DNA from: a virus
Taxonomy: Duplodnaviria; Heunggongvirae; Uroviricota; Caudoviricetes
Direction: 5' to 3' (one strand)
Length of the DNA: 12,717 bases
IMG/VR virus record: IMGVR_UViG_2681813421_000003
Position numbers and translations under genes: made by a program
Shown here: positions 2,647 through 12,205 of the stretch, piece after piece
How positions within the stretch are numbered: position 1 is the first letter of the stretch
How the letters are laid out: every line of letters begins with the position of its first letter
The notes under the pieces: generated by a model
Seen by the model: the letters and a program-made list of their open reading frames with translations, nothing else
Told to the model about the DNA's origin: nothing
Databases searched by the model: none

Positions 2647-3069
2647 ATGGCAAAAGTTTTTACACAAGAAGAGCGAGAAAAAATTAAAGGGCAGGTTGTT
2701 GAACTCGTACGCCAGAGTGGGCGTGAGACGTTACGGCAACTGGAAGTCAAGACAGGTGCGACAAGATATCTGATGAGCGTTCTCGCAAGAGAGCTGGTTG
2801 CCAGCGGCGATGTATACAACTCTGGTTACGGGTTATTCCCGTCTGAACAGGCGCGTAAGGACTGGCAAAATGCCCGTAAAAAACTATCAAGGGCAAAGGT
2901 GAAGAAACCGGTTGTGGTTGATCCTGACCTTATCTGGTCATTACCCGACGGAGAAATACGTCGTTACGACAGGCGTCTGAACATAATCTGTCGCGAGTGC
3001 CGGAAGAGTGAGGTTATGCAGCGAGTGCTGGCGTTTTATCAGGGTAATTTTCAGGAGGTGATGGCGTGA
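2647..3069 (+). CDS. hypothetical nin-region-like protein
   Basis: The tracked ORF 2581-3069 was trimmed to the ATG at 2647, which has GGGGAGGG 4 nt upstream. 140 aa, basic, with a C-terminal ICRECRK motif. Its stop overlaps the next gene's start (GTGA). Confidence 0.55.
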   Translation: MAKVFTQEEREKIKGQVVELVRQSGRETLRQLEVKTGATRYLMSVLARELVASGDVYNSGYGLFPSEQARKDWQNARKKLSRAKVKKPVVVDPDLIWSLPDGEIRRYDRRLNIICRECRKSEVMQRVLAFYQGNFQEVMA

Positions 3070-3479
3070 GGGTGAGGGTTTATATCGCTGGTCCGATGAC
3101 CGGGTATAAAAATTTCAACCGTGAGGCGTTCCACAAGGCGGAAGAGGAACTGAAACGGGAAGGGCATACAGTCTTGAACCCGGCAGTACTTCCGGACGGG
3201 CTGACACAGCCACACTACATGGATATCTGCATGGCGATGATTCGTTGCGTGGATGCGATTTACATGCTGCAAGGCTGGCAGCGGTCAGCAGGCGCTAAAG
3301 CGGAACTGGCTCTGGCGGAGAAGCTAGGGCATGTGGTTGTTTTTCAGAGGGGGCGATATGCCGATTCTCTGGTTTCAGGAGGTGTGGGAAAAAGAAATGT
3401 GGGAAGGTCTTGTGATTGTGGCCGAAACAGTTCTTTTATTATGGTCTGTGATTGCGTGTATTTTTATGATTTATTGTGA
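3066..3479 (+). CDS. DUF4406-like / nucleoside 2-deoxyribosyltransferase-like protein
   Basis: GTG start with AGGAGG 8 nt upstream. The N-terminal ~95 aa (VYIAGPMTGYKNFNREAFHKAEEELKREGHTVLNPAVLP…GWQRSAGAKAELALAEKLGHVV) match the family. The reading frame then runs ~40 aa further than expected for this family. Confidence 0.6.
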   Translation: MRVRVYIAGPMTGYKNFNREAFHKAEEELKREGHTVLNPAVLPDGLTQPHYMDICMAMIRCVDAIYMLQGWQRSAGAKAELALAEKLGHVVVFQRGRYADSLVSGGVGKRNVGRSCDCGRNSSFIMVCDCVYFYDLL

Positions 3480-3483
3480 ATGA
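3358..3483 (+). CDS. putative small hydrophobic peptide (41 aa), unannotated short ORF
   Basis: ATG at 3358 with AGAGGGGG 4 nt upstream. Encodes MPILWFQEVWEKEMWEGLVIVAETVLLLWSVIACIFMIYCE, with one predicted transmembrane segment. It overlaps the 3' tail of the DUF4406 ORF in another frame. Below the 60-aa cut-off of the ORF track. Confidence 0.25.
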   Translation: MPILWFQEVWEKEMWEGLVIVAETVLLLWSVIACIFMIYCE

Positions 3484-3510
3484 TGTGAATCTCGCGGTGG
3501 CCACTGAATT

Positions 3511-3553
3511 GCAACCATTACCCCCTGTGATGTAATTGTGGGGTAATGGTTGC
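3511..3553. repeat. perfect 14-bp inverted repeat with 15-nt spacer (hairpin or protein-binding site)
   Basis: gcaaccattacccc (3511-3524) pairs with ggggtaatggttgc (3540-3553). No T-run follows, so it is not a canonical intrinsic terminator. It sits in the intergenic gap upstream of the 3587 gene. Confidence 0.6.
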
Positions 3554-3586
3554 GCAGGCATAGCGACAGGACTGGATGAGAAAAAT

Positions 3587-4009
3587 ATGACGAAATTTAC
3601 CAGAGAGCAATTGATTGCTCATGCTAATGAAAGTGTGAAATCCATGAAATTTGCTGCGCGACAGACCGTGTTTAAGACTTCAAGAGTTGCCATTGAAATG
3701 GATCTTGCGCTTGCCCGTATTGCGCTTGCCTCACTTGAAGCAATGCCAGTTGCATGGTCCTGTGCTCACAATATGGTTTTGTTCAATGCTGAATCTGTTG
3801 CGGCATACGCAAAACACTCAGCCATTGCGCCAAAACCCCTGTACGCTGCGCAACCGGCATCACTTTCACATGAGGAAGAGTTGACAATGCTGGTTAAACA
3901 ATTGGTAAGTCAGTTGAAAAAAGCGAAACCAGATTGCAAATTACCGGATATGGCGATGGGGTATCTGGAGCGGAATGGGCTGATAAGCGCGGAGGATGTT
4001 TTACGATGA
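3587..4009 (+). CDS. hypothetical phage protein
   Basis: The tracked ORF 3536-4009 was trimmed to the ATG at 3587 (MTKFTREQLIAHANE…), because the 3536 start lies inside the inverted repeat. 140 aa, with no recognisable motif. Confidence 0.5.
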   Translation: MTKFTREQLIAHANESVKSMKFAARQTVFKTSRVAIEMDLALARIALASLEAMPVAWSCAHNMVLFNAESVAAYAKHSAIAPKPLYAAQPASLSHEEELTMLVKQLVSQLKKAKPDCKLPDMAMGYLERNGLISAEDVLR

Positions 4010-4089
4010 CCTGGCCGGAGGCATTCACAACGACAGGAATTGCAATGGCGGCAGCACTTGTTGTGTATTCGATTTGCCGCTGGGGATAA
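4006..4089 (+). CDS. putative small hydrophobic peptide (27 aa), translationally coupled
   Basis: ATGA stop/start overlap with the upstream gene. Encodes MTWPEAFTTTGIAMAAALVVYSICRWG. Below the ORF-track cut-off; there is no homology evidence. Confidence 0.2.
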   Translation: MTWPEAFTTTGIAMAAALVVYSICRWG

Positions 4090-4096
4090 AAACGGT

Positions 4097-4124
4097 TTGC
4101 AGTGAAAGGGGAGTTAAGTAGAAT
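4097..4124 (+). promoter_or_regulatory. putative sigma70 promoter of the hok transcript
   Basis: TTGCAG (4097-4102), a 16-nt spacer, then TAGAAT (4119-4124). The predicted start near 4131 places the 5' end exactly at the segment that is complementary to the 3' end of the locus. Confidence 0.4.
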
Positions 4125-4300
4125 TGCTGCGGGTGCTTGAGGCTATCTGCCTCAGGCATGAACACCAAAAGGCAGATAGAGAAAAGCCCCAGTTAACATT
4201 ACGCGTCCTGCAAGACGCTTAACATTAATCTGAGGCTCAATCTATGTCTCACAAATGTAGGTTAGCCTCTTACGTGCCGAAAGGCAAGGAGAAGCAGGCT

Positions 4301-4456
4301 ATGAAGCAGCAAAAGGCGATGTTAATCGCCCTTATCGTCATCTGTTTAACCGTCATAGTGACGGCACTGGTAACGAGGAAAGACCTCTGCGAGGTACGAA
4401 TCCGAACCGGCCAGACGGAGGTCGCTGTCTTCACAGCTTACGAACCTGAGGAGTAA
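4301..4456 (+). CDS. hok: Hok/Gef-family type I toxin (small membrane-depolarising peptide)
   Basis: 51 aa, MKQQKAMLIALIVICLTVIVTALVTRKDLCEVRIRTGQTEVAVFTAYEPEE, with the hallmark transmembrane helix followed by the conserved Cys and the RTG motif. It matches HokD/RelF-type peptides from memory. AAGGAG lies 9 nt upstream. An in-frame upstream ATG at 4244, with a GAGG Shine-Dalgarno, would give a 70-aa mok-like extended product. Confidence 0.85.
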   Translation: MKQQKAMLIALIVICLTVIVTALVTRKDLCEVRIRTGQTEVAVFTAYEPEE

Positions 4457-4869: not shown

Positions 4870-5355
4870 ATGGCTGAGATTGTTGAAGGAGTGCATTACC
4901 TTACGGTTGATGATCTTGTTGAAATCAATCGTTCCCTAATTGAATTACAGACGCCAGATGAGCCCGTTGGTGTTCTGAGTCCAGATAACTTAAGTTCTTC
5001 TCAGGCCCGTCCCAGCATGGTTCGATGGTATGAACAGACTAATGACATGTTTGTACTGGCATCGGTATTGATTGAAAGTCTGATTCAGAATCATCCGTTT
5101 GCTAATGCGAACAAACGAACAGCTATGATGGCTGGTTACGTCTTCTTGTTGTTGAATGGCTATGAGTTAACAGCACCAGGCGATGAAATCGTGGAAATGG
5201 CAGAGGGACTGGCCTGCAAAACCTATACTCGAGAAGATCTCGAGAACTGGTTGTGTTATTGGTCTCGCGCGTATGACAGCCGGGAATTATGTAAAACAGG
5301 CGCAACTATTGTTTTGTATGAAACTATCAAGCTTAAAATAGAACAGCAAAACTAA
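4870..5355 (+). CDS. Doc/Fic-family (death-on-curing) toxin
   Basis: 161 aa containing HPFANANKRTA, which fits the Doc-type motif HxFx(D/N)(A/G)NKR. Overall size and layout are typical of Doc toxins. Confidence 0.8.
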   Translation: MAEIVEGVHYLTVDDLVEINRSLIELQTPDEPVGVLSPDNLSSSQARPSMVRWYEQTNDMFVLASVLIESLIQNHPFANANKRTAMMAGYVFLLLNGYELTAPGDEIVEMAEGLACKTYTREDLENWLCYWSRAYDSRELCKTGATIVLYETIKLKIEQQN

Positions 5356-5743: not shown

Positions 5744-5748
5744 CGTGC

Positions 5749-6183
5749 GGGTATTACTTCGACCTGTTCCGGTATCCCAACGGCACTGTTGATGTTTTCC
5801 GTGGCTGGCTGAGCTCACTGGGTAAAACCATTGCCTCAAAAGACGTGATGACCCGCACTGTGAAAATCAGCGGTGTGGGGCGTCCACATCTGGCAGAGGA
5901 AGGCACTGAAACCGTGAGCGTTACCGGGCTGACAGTAGCACCGGCATCTGCCAGTGTAAGAGTGGGAGCAACCACCACGCTGACCTTTACAGTAAAACCT
6001 GACGAAGCCAGTGACAAAGCGATCAGTGTGCATTCGACAGATCCACAGACTGCCACGGTGACCCTGAACGGGCTTGTGGCCACGGTGAAAGGCGTGAAGC
6101 AGGGCAGTGTCAGTATTGTGGGCATGACTTCTGACGGCGATTTTGTGGCAGTGGCTACGGTGGCTGTCAGCGCCGCAGGTTAA
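5749..6183 (+). pseudogene. V: major tail protein V, N-terminally truncated remnant (C-terminal Ig-like/Big_2 part retained)
   Basis: Frame 1 translation …[38 protein letters not shown]… is colinear with lambda gpV (…[39 protein letters not shown]…) through to the C-terminal Ig-like domain. There is no start codon or N-terminal domain; the frame is open from 5635 but similarity begins only around 5750. Confidence 0.7.
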
Positions 6184-12166: not shown

Positions 12167-12193
12167 AGCCCGCCGGTTCAGGCGGGCTTTTTT
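12167..12193 (+). terminator. intrinsic terminator after lom
   Basis: gcccgcc ggttca ggcgggc followed by TTTTTT. Confidence 0.65.
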
Positions 12194-12195
12194 GT

Positions 12196-12205
12196 GGGGG
12201 GGGGG
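12196..12205. repeat. G10 homopolymer tract immediately upstream of the stf start codon
   Basis: Ten consecutive G (12196-12205), then aat, then the ATG at 12209. Confidence 0.9.

What the first reader, a model, noticed from the sequence alone, without database searches (positions are those of the whole stretch)
3066..3483. DUF4406-like gene with an unusually long C-terminal tail that overlaps a strongly initiated small membrane-peptide ORF
The nucleoside 2-deoxyribosyltransferase-like homology ends around …KLGHVVVF, but the frame stays open for ~40 more codons. In a different frame, a 41-codon ORF (3358-3483) with an excellent Shine-Dalgarno (AGAGGGGG, 4-nt spacer) encodes a hydrophobic peptide. 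Either the DUF4406 gene has lost its stop, or the window hides an unannotated small membrane protein coupled to a putative nucleotide-metabolism enzyme. The latter would be an uncommon pairing and could be an effector pair.
Basis: partly seen in the sequence, partly recalled or inferred. Interest (0 to 1): 0.5.

Follow-up and report, generated by a model that had tools for sequence, protein, structure and literature searches.

The report
Variable G-run at prophage gene junction
The long tail on this prophage enzyme gene is a read-through by-product of a gene-module swap plus a one-base change in an unstable run of Gs, and the small membrane-peptide ORF it overlaps is a plausible but unproven orphan gene seen only in a few E. 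coli prophages.

Summary
A GTG-started ORF (3066-3479, 137 aa) carries a complete DUF4406 domain in residues 4-93 and then 44 more codons. A 41-codon ORF (3358-3483) with a very strong Shine-Dalgarno overlaps that tail.

The tail is not a conserved extension. DUF4406 homologues end 1-7 residues after ...FQ. DNA homology to the common Rac-type gene stops after codon Q94 (3347), where a rare ~520-bp module begins, found in 36 of 5426 complete E. coli genomes.

At the joint sits a G-run: G5 here, G6 in most relatives, and G7, G8, G9 or G4AG5-7 in others. It changed length at least 8 times among 21 haplotype/tract combinations. The tail is therefore read in all three frames:
- 22 aa in G6 alleles.
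- 43-44 aa in G5 and G8 alleles.
- An in-frame fusion to the peptide in G7 and G4AG5 alleles.

PGAP flags the window's G5 allele as a pseudogene, yet the enzyme core is intact.

The small ORF is intact in all 61 loci examined. It begins where the next gene begins in canonical prophages, and its hydrophobicity is second in the window only to Hok. It has no homologue in 1.8 billion cluster representatives and shows no codon-position selection signal. I rate it a credible but unproven small membrane protein. An "effector pair" is not supported.

The parts
3066..3347 (+). DUF4406 core (codons 1-94, GTG start), with a nucleoside 2-deoxyribosyltransferase/DNPH1-like fold; it is intact in the window
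   Evidence: Pfam PF14359 at 129 bits, residues 4-93 covering the full model. AF2 pLDDT is about 79-97 for residues 1-90 and 68 on average for 91-100, with the last strand at 90-93. Foldseek top hits are NDT, DNPH1 and MilB. 37 variable sites among relatives, 27 at third codon positions. PGAP annotates exactly 3066-3347 as the retained part.
3348..3479 (+). Read-through tail of the DUF4406 frame in this G5 allele (residues 95-137, RGRYADSLVSGG...VYFYDLL, stop TGA 3477-3479)
   Evidence: No homologue shares it except near-identical alleles with G5, G8 or G4AG6. AF2 gives pLDDT below 50 and no secondary structure for residues 97-137. Homologues end 1-7 aa after FQ.
3349..3353 (+). Length-variable G-run at the mosaic joint; it forms part of the Shine-Dalgarno of the small ORF (AGAGGGGG 3346-3353)
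   Evidence: Among 61 non-redundant loci from targeted look-ups, not an unbiased frequency sample: G5 in the window plus 6 loci, G6 in 39, G7 in 6, G8 in 5, G9 in 1, G4AG7 in 2, G4AG5 in 1. G4AG6 is inferred from the protein sequence of P0003. One identical 940-bp flank haplotype carries both G6 and G7. At least 8 length changes on an NJ tree.
3358..3483 (+). 41-codon orphan ORF encoding an acidic N-terminus plus one hydrophobic helix (candidate small membrane protein)
   Evidence: SD duplex energy -11.1 kcal/mol, rank 2 of 178. Hydropathy rank 2 of 203. Intact in all 61 loci; variants are I3T, F6L, L27I, I35V, V21V, a stop loss and a 15-nt in-frame deletion. AF2 models this frame as a helix with pLDDT 73-91 in the fused allele. 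Present in the protein database as P0001, 'putative membrane protein'. No homologue found.
3413..3415 (+). TGA stop used by the DUF4406 frame in the common G6/G9 alleles (116-117 aa protein ending ...AICRFSGFRRCGKKKCGKVL)
   Evidence: Alignment and ORF list of E24377A; the RefSeq proteins WP_001266138 and WP_001266139 are 116 aa.
3383..3405 (+). 8-nt direct repeat TGTGGGAA (3383-3390 and 3398-3405); one 15-nt unit is deleted in the G4AG lineage, removing five residues from the peptide in frame (MPILWFQEVWEGL... in place of ...QEVWEKEMWEGL...)
   Evidence: Sequence of L012; P0124 and P0146; variable-site table.
3511..3553 (+). Perfect 14-bp inverted repeat (GCAACCATTACCCC / GGGGTAATGGTTGC) with a 15-nt loop, lying between the small ORF and the next gene; no T-tail follows, so it is not a canonical intrinsic terminator
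   Evidence: RNA fold of 3480-3600: -36.6 kcal/mol, z = -2.8. No terminator call. No Rfam match.
3587..4009 (+). 140-aa hypothetical protein (mosaic early-region phage protein). Its N-terminal two-thirds belong to the same rare module as the small ORF
   Evidence: Annotated as WP_001397096. Matches phrog_660, phrog_5117 and phrog_60. Only the part from about window 3875 onward has DNA matches above 80% identity in other phages.

Best explanation
The window is the early-right operon of a Rac-like lambdoid prophage of enterotoxigenic E. coli.

The DUF4406 gene, an NDT/DNPH1-like enzyme, is complete by about residue 94-96. In canonical prophages its last few codons contain the ribosome-binding site of the next gene, and a stop follows within 5-7 codons. 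Here a recombination joint inside that RBS-like sequence (CAG|AGGGGG, about 3347/3348) replaced the downstream genes with a rare ~520-bp module. That module opens with its own strong RBS and an ATG (3358).

The incoming module has no early stop in the DUF4406 frame, so ribosomes run on until the first chance stop. Which stop they reach depends on the length of a slippage-prone G-run at the joint:
- G6 (the common allele): a 22-aa tail.
- G5 (this window, a 1-nt contraction) or G8: a 43-44-aa tail.
- G7: an in-frame fusion to the peptide.

The tract changes freely among close relatives while the core evolves under purifying selection, so the tail is unconstrained and most likely functionless. 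The enzyme domain remains intact despite PGAP's pseudogene flag.

The 41-codon ORF sits exactly where a next-gene start is expected. It is probably translated into a 4.9-kDa single-helix membrane peptide of unknown role, perhaps a phage early-region accessory protein acting at the inner membrane.

Shown: the anatomy, the joint, the tract polymorphism, the lack of tail conservation and the intactness of the ORF. Inferred: translation and membrane insertion of the peptide, neutrality of the tail, and the slippage mechanism.
For: - Domain end: Pfam covers the full model by residue 93. Homologues are mostly 95-101 aa and stop 1-7 residues after FQ. AF2 is confident for the core (pLDDT about 79-97 to residue 90) and gives pLDDT below 50 for 97-137.
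- Joint: similarity to Rac-SA53 and 689R5 ends at CAG 3345-3347. The downstream module is in 36 of 5426 genomes, always next to DUF4406, and is absent from the phage collection upstream of about 3875.
- Same architecture as canonical prophages: in Rac-SA53 the next gene's GTG lies 11 nt after CAG; here the ATG lies 10 nt after it.
- Tract: G5 to G9 and G4AG5-7. The variants occur in many independent NCBI, Logan and ENA assemblies. There are at least 8 length changes and at least 7 frame changes, against 0-1 at the seven other homopolymer runs.
- Core under selection: 27 of 37 variable sites are at third codon positions.
- Small ORF: SD rank 2 of 178. G-run RBSs are used by confirmed neighbours such as 1101 and 2647. 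Hydropathy is second only to Hok. AF2 predicts a helix. It is intact in 61 of 61 loci and is called by gene finders in 427 collection blocks.
Against: - The small ORF shows no codon-position bias: 4 non-synonymous changes, 1 synonymous, 1 stop loss and 1 in-frame deletion. Diversity is too low to test selection.
- It has no homologue anywhere and RefSeq/PGAP does not annotate it.
- Its net charge is -5, with a Glu inside the hydrophobic stretch, which is atypical for inner-membrane peptides.
- The MFE fold pairs the SD and AUG in a local hairpin, although the fold is not better than shuffles (z = -1.4).
- An overlap of 56-122 nt with an upstream translated frame is unusual for real gene pairs.
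- A G-run polymorphism this rich could also reflect selection for switching rather than neutrality.
Confidence: 0.65

Rival explanations
1. The small ORF is a chance ORF. On this reading, 3348-3586 is an untranslated AT-rich spacer with a hairpin between DUF4406 and the 140-aa gene. The SD-like G-run is simply what is left of the recombination joint.
For: It is an orphan: the only hit among 1.84 billion cluster representatives is itself, and nothing is found in phages or in GTDB species representatives. There is no codon-position signal. A common allele has lost the stop and adds 8 aa. GC is 39% with T-rich second codon positions, so any frame looks hydrophobic. PGAP does not call it.
Against: The SD strength is in the top 0.3% of starts, and nearly all comparable sites in the window are gene starts. 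The ORF starts where the next gene starts in canonical relatives. It carries no nonsense or frameshift in 20 haplotypes. Its two internal 5-nt runs never vary, whereas both 5-nt runs in the spacer do. The other two frames are not helix-like or hydrophobic.
Confidence: 0.3
2. The G-run is a genuine phase-variation (contingency) switch. Slipped-strand mispairing would reversibly toggle the enzyme between a soluble form with a short basic tail, a long-tailed form, and a membrane-anchored DUF4406-peptide fusion. It would also change how upstream ribosomes affect initiation of the free peptide.
For: All three frames exist in nature, and G6 and G7 occur on the same flank haplotype. There are at least 7 frame changes on a shallow tree. 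The tract reaches G9. The fusion allele is widespread, in 41 collection blocks, and its tail models as a confident helix.
Against: G6 dominates (about 30 of 36 complete genomes and 18 of 26 IMG/VR contigs), as expected for an ancestral state with occasional neutral slips. Tracts of 5-6 nt are short for high-rate switching. No DUF4406 homologue elsewhere has a membrane anchor. E. coli is not known, to my knowledge, to use poly-G contingency loci. There are no within-population data.
Confidence: 0.12
3. The ancestral gene is a DUF4406-transmembrane fusion (the G7 state). On this reading the window and the G6 alleles are frameshift-inactivated derivatives, so the 'small ORF' is just the stranded C-terminal domain.
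For: G7 and G4AG5 alleles give one continuous ORF of 135-139 aa. PGAP treats the window copy as a pseudogene.
Against: The DUF4406 fold and Pfam model are complete without the extension. Relatives end at 95-101 aa. DNA homology breaks exactly between the two parts. An ATG with a strong SD sits at the start of the second part. G7 is a minority state nested among G6 haplotypes.
Confidence: 0.06
4. Programmed ribosomal or transcriptional slippage on the G-run produces the fusion protein as a minor product from G5 or G6 alleles, as in lambda G/GT or dnaX.
For: In G6 alleles a -1 slip of tRNA-Gly on the G-run gives exactly the G7 protein sequence (my reading of the sequences). A rare AGG codon and an SD-like sequence, both known frameshift stimulators, lie at the site.
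Against: There is no X XXY YYZ heptamer in the zero frame (CAG AGG GGG CGA). No significant downstream structure is seen (z = -1.4). The required shift differs between alleles (+1 for G5, -1 for G6), so no single programmed event is conserved.
Confidence: 0.04

Closest known systems
Mosaic module joints of lambdoid/Rac-like prophages (exchange at gene boundaries)
   Same: The homology break falls at a gene boundary, inside the RBS-like sequence that ends one gene and starts the next. DUF4406 alleles and upstream partners (DUF977/LygF or a 93-aa protein) are shuffled independently of the downstream module.
   Different: The incoming module lacks an early stop in the upstream frame, so the upstream gene gains a 22-44-aa read-through tail. 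A variable G-run sits at the joint.
Homopolymeric-tract (poly-G) phase-variable contingency loci of Neisseria, Haemophilus, Campylobacter and Bordetella
   Same: G-run length polymorphism between near-identical strains shifts the reading frame of a coding sequence.
   Different: The tract is short (5-9 nt) and lies after the functional domain, so it changes only a tail rather than switching the gene on or off. Reversible high-frequency switching is not shown. The host is E. coli, which is not known for this mechanism (my own knowledge).
Small hydrophobic phage/prophage peptides such as type I toxins (Hok, encoded 800 bp downstream at 4301-4456)
   Same: About 40-50 aa with a single hydrophobic helix, located in a prophage early region.
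   Different: No family HMM match in Pfam, NCBIfam, PHROGs or PADLOC. No sok-like antisense RNA. Net charge is -5, with the helix at the C-terminus, whereas Hok-type toxins are basic (my own knowledge).
DUF4406 / nucleoside 2-deoxyribosyltransferase-DNPH1-MilB N-glycosidase superfamily
   Same: The core matches PF14359 fully. The predicted fold matches NDT, DNPH1 and MilB structures. S74, G76 and E80 are invariant, and their S-x-G-x-x-x-E spacing resembles the catalytic motif (the motif itself is from my own knowledge).
   Different: About 95 aa against 130-160 aa for characterised enzymes. The Pfam Nuc_deoxyrib_tr score is below its cut-off (13.2 against 28.8). No substrate is known.

Membership tests
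DUF4406 (PF14359) | Score above Pfam's gathering cut-off with full-length model coverage | tested here: met
   129 bits against 22; model positions 2-91 of 91 matched by residues 4-93.
DUF4406 (PF14359) | Typical single-domain length (about 95-101 aa), ending a few residues after the last strand | tested here: not met
   The window ORF is 137 aa. Homologues end 1-7 aa after FQ. The excess is explained by the joint and the G-run, not by a family feature.
Nucleoside 2-deoxyribosyltransferase / DNPH1 superfamily | Flavodoxin-like NDT fold | tested here: met
   Foldseek against the PDB: 2a0k E = 5.8e-5, DNPH1 9da6 E = 9.6e-4, probability 1.0, about 93-105 aligned columns, on a model whose core has pLDDT about 79-97.
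Nucleoside 2-deoxyribosyltransferase / DNPH1 superfamily | Sequence-family membership (PF05014) | tested here: not met
   13.2 bits against a cut-off of 28.8; no PDB sequence hit at E <= 1.
Nucleoside 2-deoxyribosyltransferase / DNPH1 superfamily | Catalytic Glu nucleophile in place; N-glycosidase or transferase activity | tested here: inconclusive
   S74, G76 and E80 are invariant in 42 sequences. I did not verify that they superpose on the catalytic residues. Activity cannot be tested here.
Type I toxin (Hok/Gef-like and similar) | Family HMM match | tested here: not met
   No Pfam, NCBIfam, PHROG or PADLOC hit for the 41-aa peptide.
Type I toxin (Hok/Gef-like and similar) | Cis-encoded antisense RNA antitoxin | tested here: inconclusive
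   No Rfam hit in 3000-4100 apart from the separate hok/sok locus. One weak minus-strand promoter-like site at 3489-3460, no more than shuffles give.
Type I toxin (Hok/Gef-like and similar) | Toxicity or membrane depolarisation on expression | not testable with these tools
   Needs an expression experiment.
Simple-sequence-repeat phase-variable locus | Homopolymer tract in a coding region whose length differs among close relatives and changes the frame | tested here: met
   G5 to G9 and G4AG5-7; G6 and G7 on identical flanks; at least 7 frame changes.
Simple-sequence-repeat phase-variable locus | High-frequency reversible switching within a clonal population, with a phenotypic consequence | not testable with these tools
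   No read-level or culture data are available.
Programmed -1/+1 ribosomal frameshift site | Conserved slippery heptamer plus a stimulatory element, with a fixed frame relationship | tested here: not met
   The zero frame reads CAG AGG GGG CGA, which has no X XXY YYZ. The frame relationship varies between alleles. The local fold is not significant.

The most novel reading that the evidence does not exclude
The G-run would be a functional slippage switch in an E. coli prophage. It would stochastically convert a soluble NDT/DNPH1-like nucleotide N-glycosidase into a membrane-tethered fusion (G7 state), or uncouple it to release a free 41-aa membrane peptide (G5/G6 states). A lysogen population would then hold alternative phage-encoded nucleotide-metabolism or exclusion phenotypes. 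That would be a poly-G contingency locus of the Neisseria/Campylobacter type, in a species and an element where none is described.
Probability: 0.1. Interest if true: 0.65.

Novelty: new member of a known kind. Interest (0 to 1): 0.3.

Why it matters
In practice this is mainly an annotation lesson. The 'pseudogene' (G5), the 116-aa 'DUF4406 protein' (G6) and the 139-aa fusion (G7) in databases are one gene whose catalytic core is always intact. They differ only by a slippery G-run at a mosaic joint. The tails should not be read as domains, and the pseudogene flag should not be read as loss of function.

The locus also supplies a well-defined candidate for small-protein discovery. It is a 41-codon orphan ORF whose RBS is the second strongest among the window's 178 ATG-started ORFs of at least 41 codons, and it is RefSeq-unannotated. 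It occurs naturally in free and fused forms, which gives ready-made isogenic comparisons.

If the tract proved to switch at high rate, it would be an unusual case of homopolymer phase variation in an E. coli prophage.

Tried and rejected
1. Distant homologues of the 41-aa peptide.
2. Family assignment of the peptide and of the 140-aa neighbour. The peptide gave nothing in Pfam, PHROGs, NCBIfam or PADLOC. The neighbour gave only PHROGs of unknown function.
3. A conserved 'small membrane ORF + 140-aa gene' pair. Relatives of the 140-aa protein's N-terminus in Stx phages and phage Dewey sit in tightly packed arrays with no such partner.
4. A selection test on the small ORF. Only 6 variable sites exist, so it has no power.
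5. The hairpin 3511-3553 as a known RNA or terminator. No Rfam hit and no T-tail.
6. Literature. There is nothing on DUF4406 in lambdoid prophages, on this peptide sequence, or on ribosome profiling of strain E24377A.
7. Sequencing error as the source of tract variation. Rejected, because each length recurs in many independent assemblies from different sources.
8. Long C-terminal tails in other DUF4406 hits (P0097, P0107, P0116 and others). They are unrelated to this tail and to each other, apart from a shared Cys-rich motif in two proteins.
Full report
**Observation**

The stretch reads as the first-stage reader described. A GTG-started ORF runs from 3066 to 3479 and encodes 137 aa. Pfam DUF4406 matches residues 4-93 over the whole 91-position model, at 129 bits against a cut-off of 22. 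Forty-four codons therefore follow the domain.

In the +1 frame a 41-codon ORF runs from ATG 3358 to TGA 3481-3483. It is preceded by AGAGGGGG (3346-3353) and a 4-nt spacer. It encodes MPILWFQEVWEKEMWEGLVIVAETVLLLWSVIACIFMIYCE.

A 44-codon open run is not itself unusual (about 0.12 by my arithmetic). The start signal is. Its anti-SD duplex energy of -11.1 kcal/mol ranks 2 of 178 ATG-started ORFs of at least 41 codons in the window. Five of the six other starts with a duplex of -9 kcal/mol or stronger coincide with gene starts annotated in relatives or with a strong Pfam match (1101, 1869, 2647, 8056, 10344); the sixth, 6940, lies inside the tape-measure ORF. The peptide's best 19-residue hydropathy is second only to Hok among 203 open stretches.

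**Context**

The first ~5770 bases are 100% identical to a Rac-like lambdoid prophage of enterotoxigenic E. coli, for example O6:H16 2014EL-1346-6 and E1739. The gene order is YdaT, an O-like HTH protein, a P-like ATPase, DUF1627, DUF977/LygF, DUF4406, a 140-aa hypothetical protein, hokD/sok and a Fic/Doc toxin.

It does not annotate the small ORF.

**Where DUF4406 normally ends**

Most of the 120 best homologues are 95-101 aa long. In an alignment of 42 of them, all but a few longer outliers stop 1-7 residues after the ...FQ that follows the last strand. The phage copies end ...FQEATSEQN* in Rac-SA53 (101 aa) and ...FQEANSE* in 689R5 (99 aa).

AlphaFold2 with this alignment models the core confidently, with pLDDT about 79-97 up to residue 90 and a mean of 68 for residues 91-100. 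Its last strand is at 90-93, and residues 97-137 are coil with pLDDT below 50. The core matches the structures of nucleoside 2-deoxyribosyltransferases, DNPH1 and MilB. The tail is therefore not part of the fold or of the family.

**The joint**

Nucleotide similarity to the common Rac-type gene runs up to CAG (Q94, 3345-3347) and then collapses. The sequence from 3348 to about 3875 is a rare module. It is present in 36 of 5426 complete E. coli genomes, always directly after DUF4406, and has no match in 50,697 phage records.

In Rac-SA53 the sequence after CAG is GAGGCAACCAGTG. That is an RBS followed by the GTG of the next gene (ead) 11 nt after CAG, and the DUF4406 stop comes a few codons later. 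In the window the sequence is AGGGGGCGATATG, an RBS followed by an ATG 10 nt after CAG.

The small ORF thus occupies exactly the next-gene slot. The difference is that the new module offers no early stop in the DUF4406 frame. This accounts for a read-through tail without invoking a function for it.

**The G-run**

The window differs from E24377A by a single base across this stretch, G5 against G6. With G6 the protein is 116 aa...FQRGAICRFSGFRRCGKKKCGKVL*, ending at TGA 3413-3415. Protein-cluster members and 61 non-redundant loci show the states below.

| Tract | DUF4406-frame product |
|---|---|
| G5, G8, G4AG6 | 43-44-aa tail beginning ...RYADS |
| G6, G9, G4AG7 | 22-23-aa tail beginning ...AICRF |
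| G7, G4AG5 | in-frame fusion: ...FQRGGDMPILWFQEVW...IYCE (139 aa, P0141), ...FQRGGGDMPILW... (133-135 aa, P0146/L060) |

G4AG6 is inferred from the protein sequence of P0003.

- The variants recur in many independent NCBI, Logan and ENA assemblies. The G7 protein is in 41 collection blocks and the G8 protein in 47. They are therefore not sequencing noise.
- One identical 940-bp flank haplotype carries both G6 and G7, and G5 sits on two unrelated haplotypes.
- On an NJ tree of 21 haplotype/tract combinations the tract changed length at least 8 times and changed frame at least 7 times. The seven other homopolymer runs of at least 5 nt in 3066-4003 changed 0-1 times.
- The DUF4406 core has 37 variable sites, 27 of them at third codon positions.

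The simplest reading is that the core is under purifying selection, the tail frame is not, and the G-run slips. In samples that were not chosen by tract state, G6 dominates: about 30 of 36 complete genomes and 18 of 26 IMG/VR contigs. That fits an ancestral G6 with sporadic derived states, of which the window's G5 is one.

**Is the small ORF a gene?**

For:
- The RBS is strong, and G-run RBSs are used by confirmed neighbours at 1101 and 2647.
- It sits at the canonical next-gene start.
- It is intact in all 61 loci across 20 haplotypes, with only conservative replacements (I3T, F6L, L27I, I35V), one synonymous change and an in-frame 15-nt deletion between TGTGGGAA repeats.
- AF2 models this frame as a single long helix (pLDDT 73-91) in the fused allele, in contrast to the coil predicted for the G5 tail.
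- Gene callers and some GenBank submitters already list it as a 'putative membrane protein'.

Against:
- It has no homologue in 1.84 billion cluster representatives, in phages, or in 185,579 species-representative genomes.
- Six variable sites give no power to detect selection, and they show no third-position excess.
- A common allele has lost the stop and adds 8 aa.
- The peptide is acidic (net charge -5) with a Glu inside the hydrophobic stretch.
- The region is T-rich.
- The MFE fold sequesters the SD and AUG, although not significantly.

I put the probability that it is translated into a stable product at about one half to 0.6.

**Rival readings**

- A true contingency switch is compatible with the polymorphism. 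It is not supported by G6 dominance, the short tracts, or the absence of membrane-anchored DUF4406 proteins elsewhere.
- An ancestral fusion gene is contradicted by the homology break, by the internal RBS and ATG, and by the complete domain upstream.
- Programmed frameshifting lacks a slippery heptamer and lacks a conserved frame relationship.
- The 'effector pair' idea fails on distribution. DNA similar to the DUF977-DUF4406 query stretch is in about 3500 genomes, while the module is in 36.

**Verdict**

The long tail is a by-product of mosaic recombination plus a 1-nt homopolymer slip, which is ordinary and explained. The small ORF is a credible, RefSeq-unannotated orphan candidate for a membrane peptide. 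The variable G-run that can fuse the two ORFs is a modest curiosity worth a targeted experiment. Interest is 0.3, and I class it as a new member of a known kind.

Noticed in passing
window 12196-12205: A run of ten Gs lies directly after the Lom terminator hairpin (GCCCGCCGGTTCAGGCGGGC followed by TTTTTT, about 12170-12195) and 4 nt before ATG 12210 of the tail-fibre (stf-like) gene. This is a second G-run serving as an RBS and, at 10 nt, a much better candidate for slippage than the one studied here.
   Followed up: no
window ~5745-5850: The early-right operon is joined, a few codons into the DUF968 gene, to the 3' Ig-like (Big_2) end of a major-tail gene. That is followed by the G/T tail chaperones, tape measure, further tail genes, Lom and stf. 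Intact relatives instead continue with DUF968, RusA, Q, a Ser/Thr kinase and phosphatase, a methyltransferase and tRNAs. The window's prophage therefore appears to carry a large internal deletion and to be defective.
   Followed up: partly
window 3511-3553: A perfect 14-bp inverted repeat with a 15-nt loop lies between the small ORF and the 140-aa gene. It is stable as RNA (fold of 3480-3600: -36.6 kcal/mol, z = -2.8), has no T-tail and gives no Rfam match. The C5 run on its left arm (3521-3525) is C6 in the L012/L060 lineage. Point variants in other haplotypes break single pairs without compensation.
   Followed up: partly
window 4131-4456: A complete hok/sok type I toxin-antitoxin locus: Rfam sok at 121.6 bits (4131-4306) and the hokD CDS at 4301-4456. 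A Fic/Doc-family toxin gene follows at 4870-5355.
   Followed up: partly
P0116 (Yokenella), P0097 and P0104: A few DUF4406 proteins from other Enterobacterales carry a different 35-40-aa C-terminal extension. These extensions share a Cys-rich motif (...E(N/Q)C(R/L)C(Q/I)S...). That may be a genuine extra zinc-ribbon-like module, and it is unrelated to the tail in this window.
   Followed up: no
window 3066-3347 compared with 3354-4003 across loci L001-L066: DUF4406 alleles differ by up to 21 of 282 nt between haplotypes, while in most haplotypes the right-hand module differs by only 1-5 of about 650 nt. Upstream partners also vary (DUF977/LygF, a 93-aa protein, or a 105-aa protein). Recombination is therefore reshuffling the left side around a young, nearly clonal right-hand module.
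   Followed up: partly
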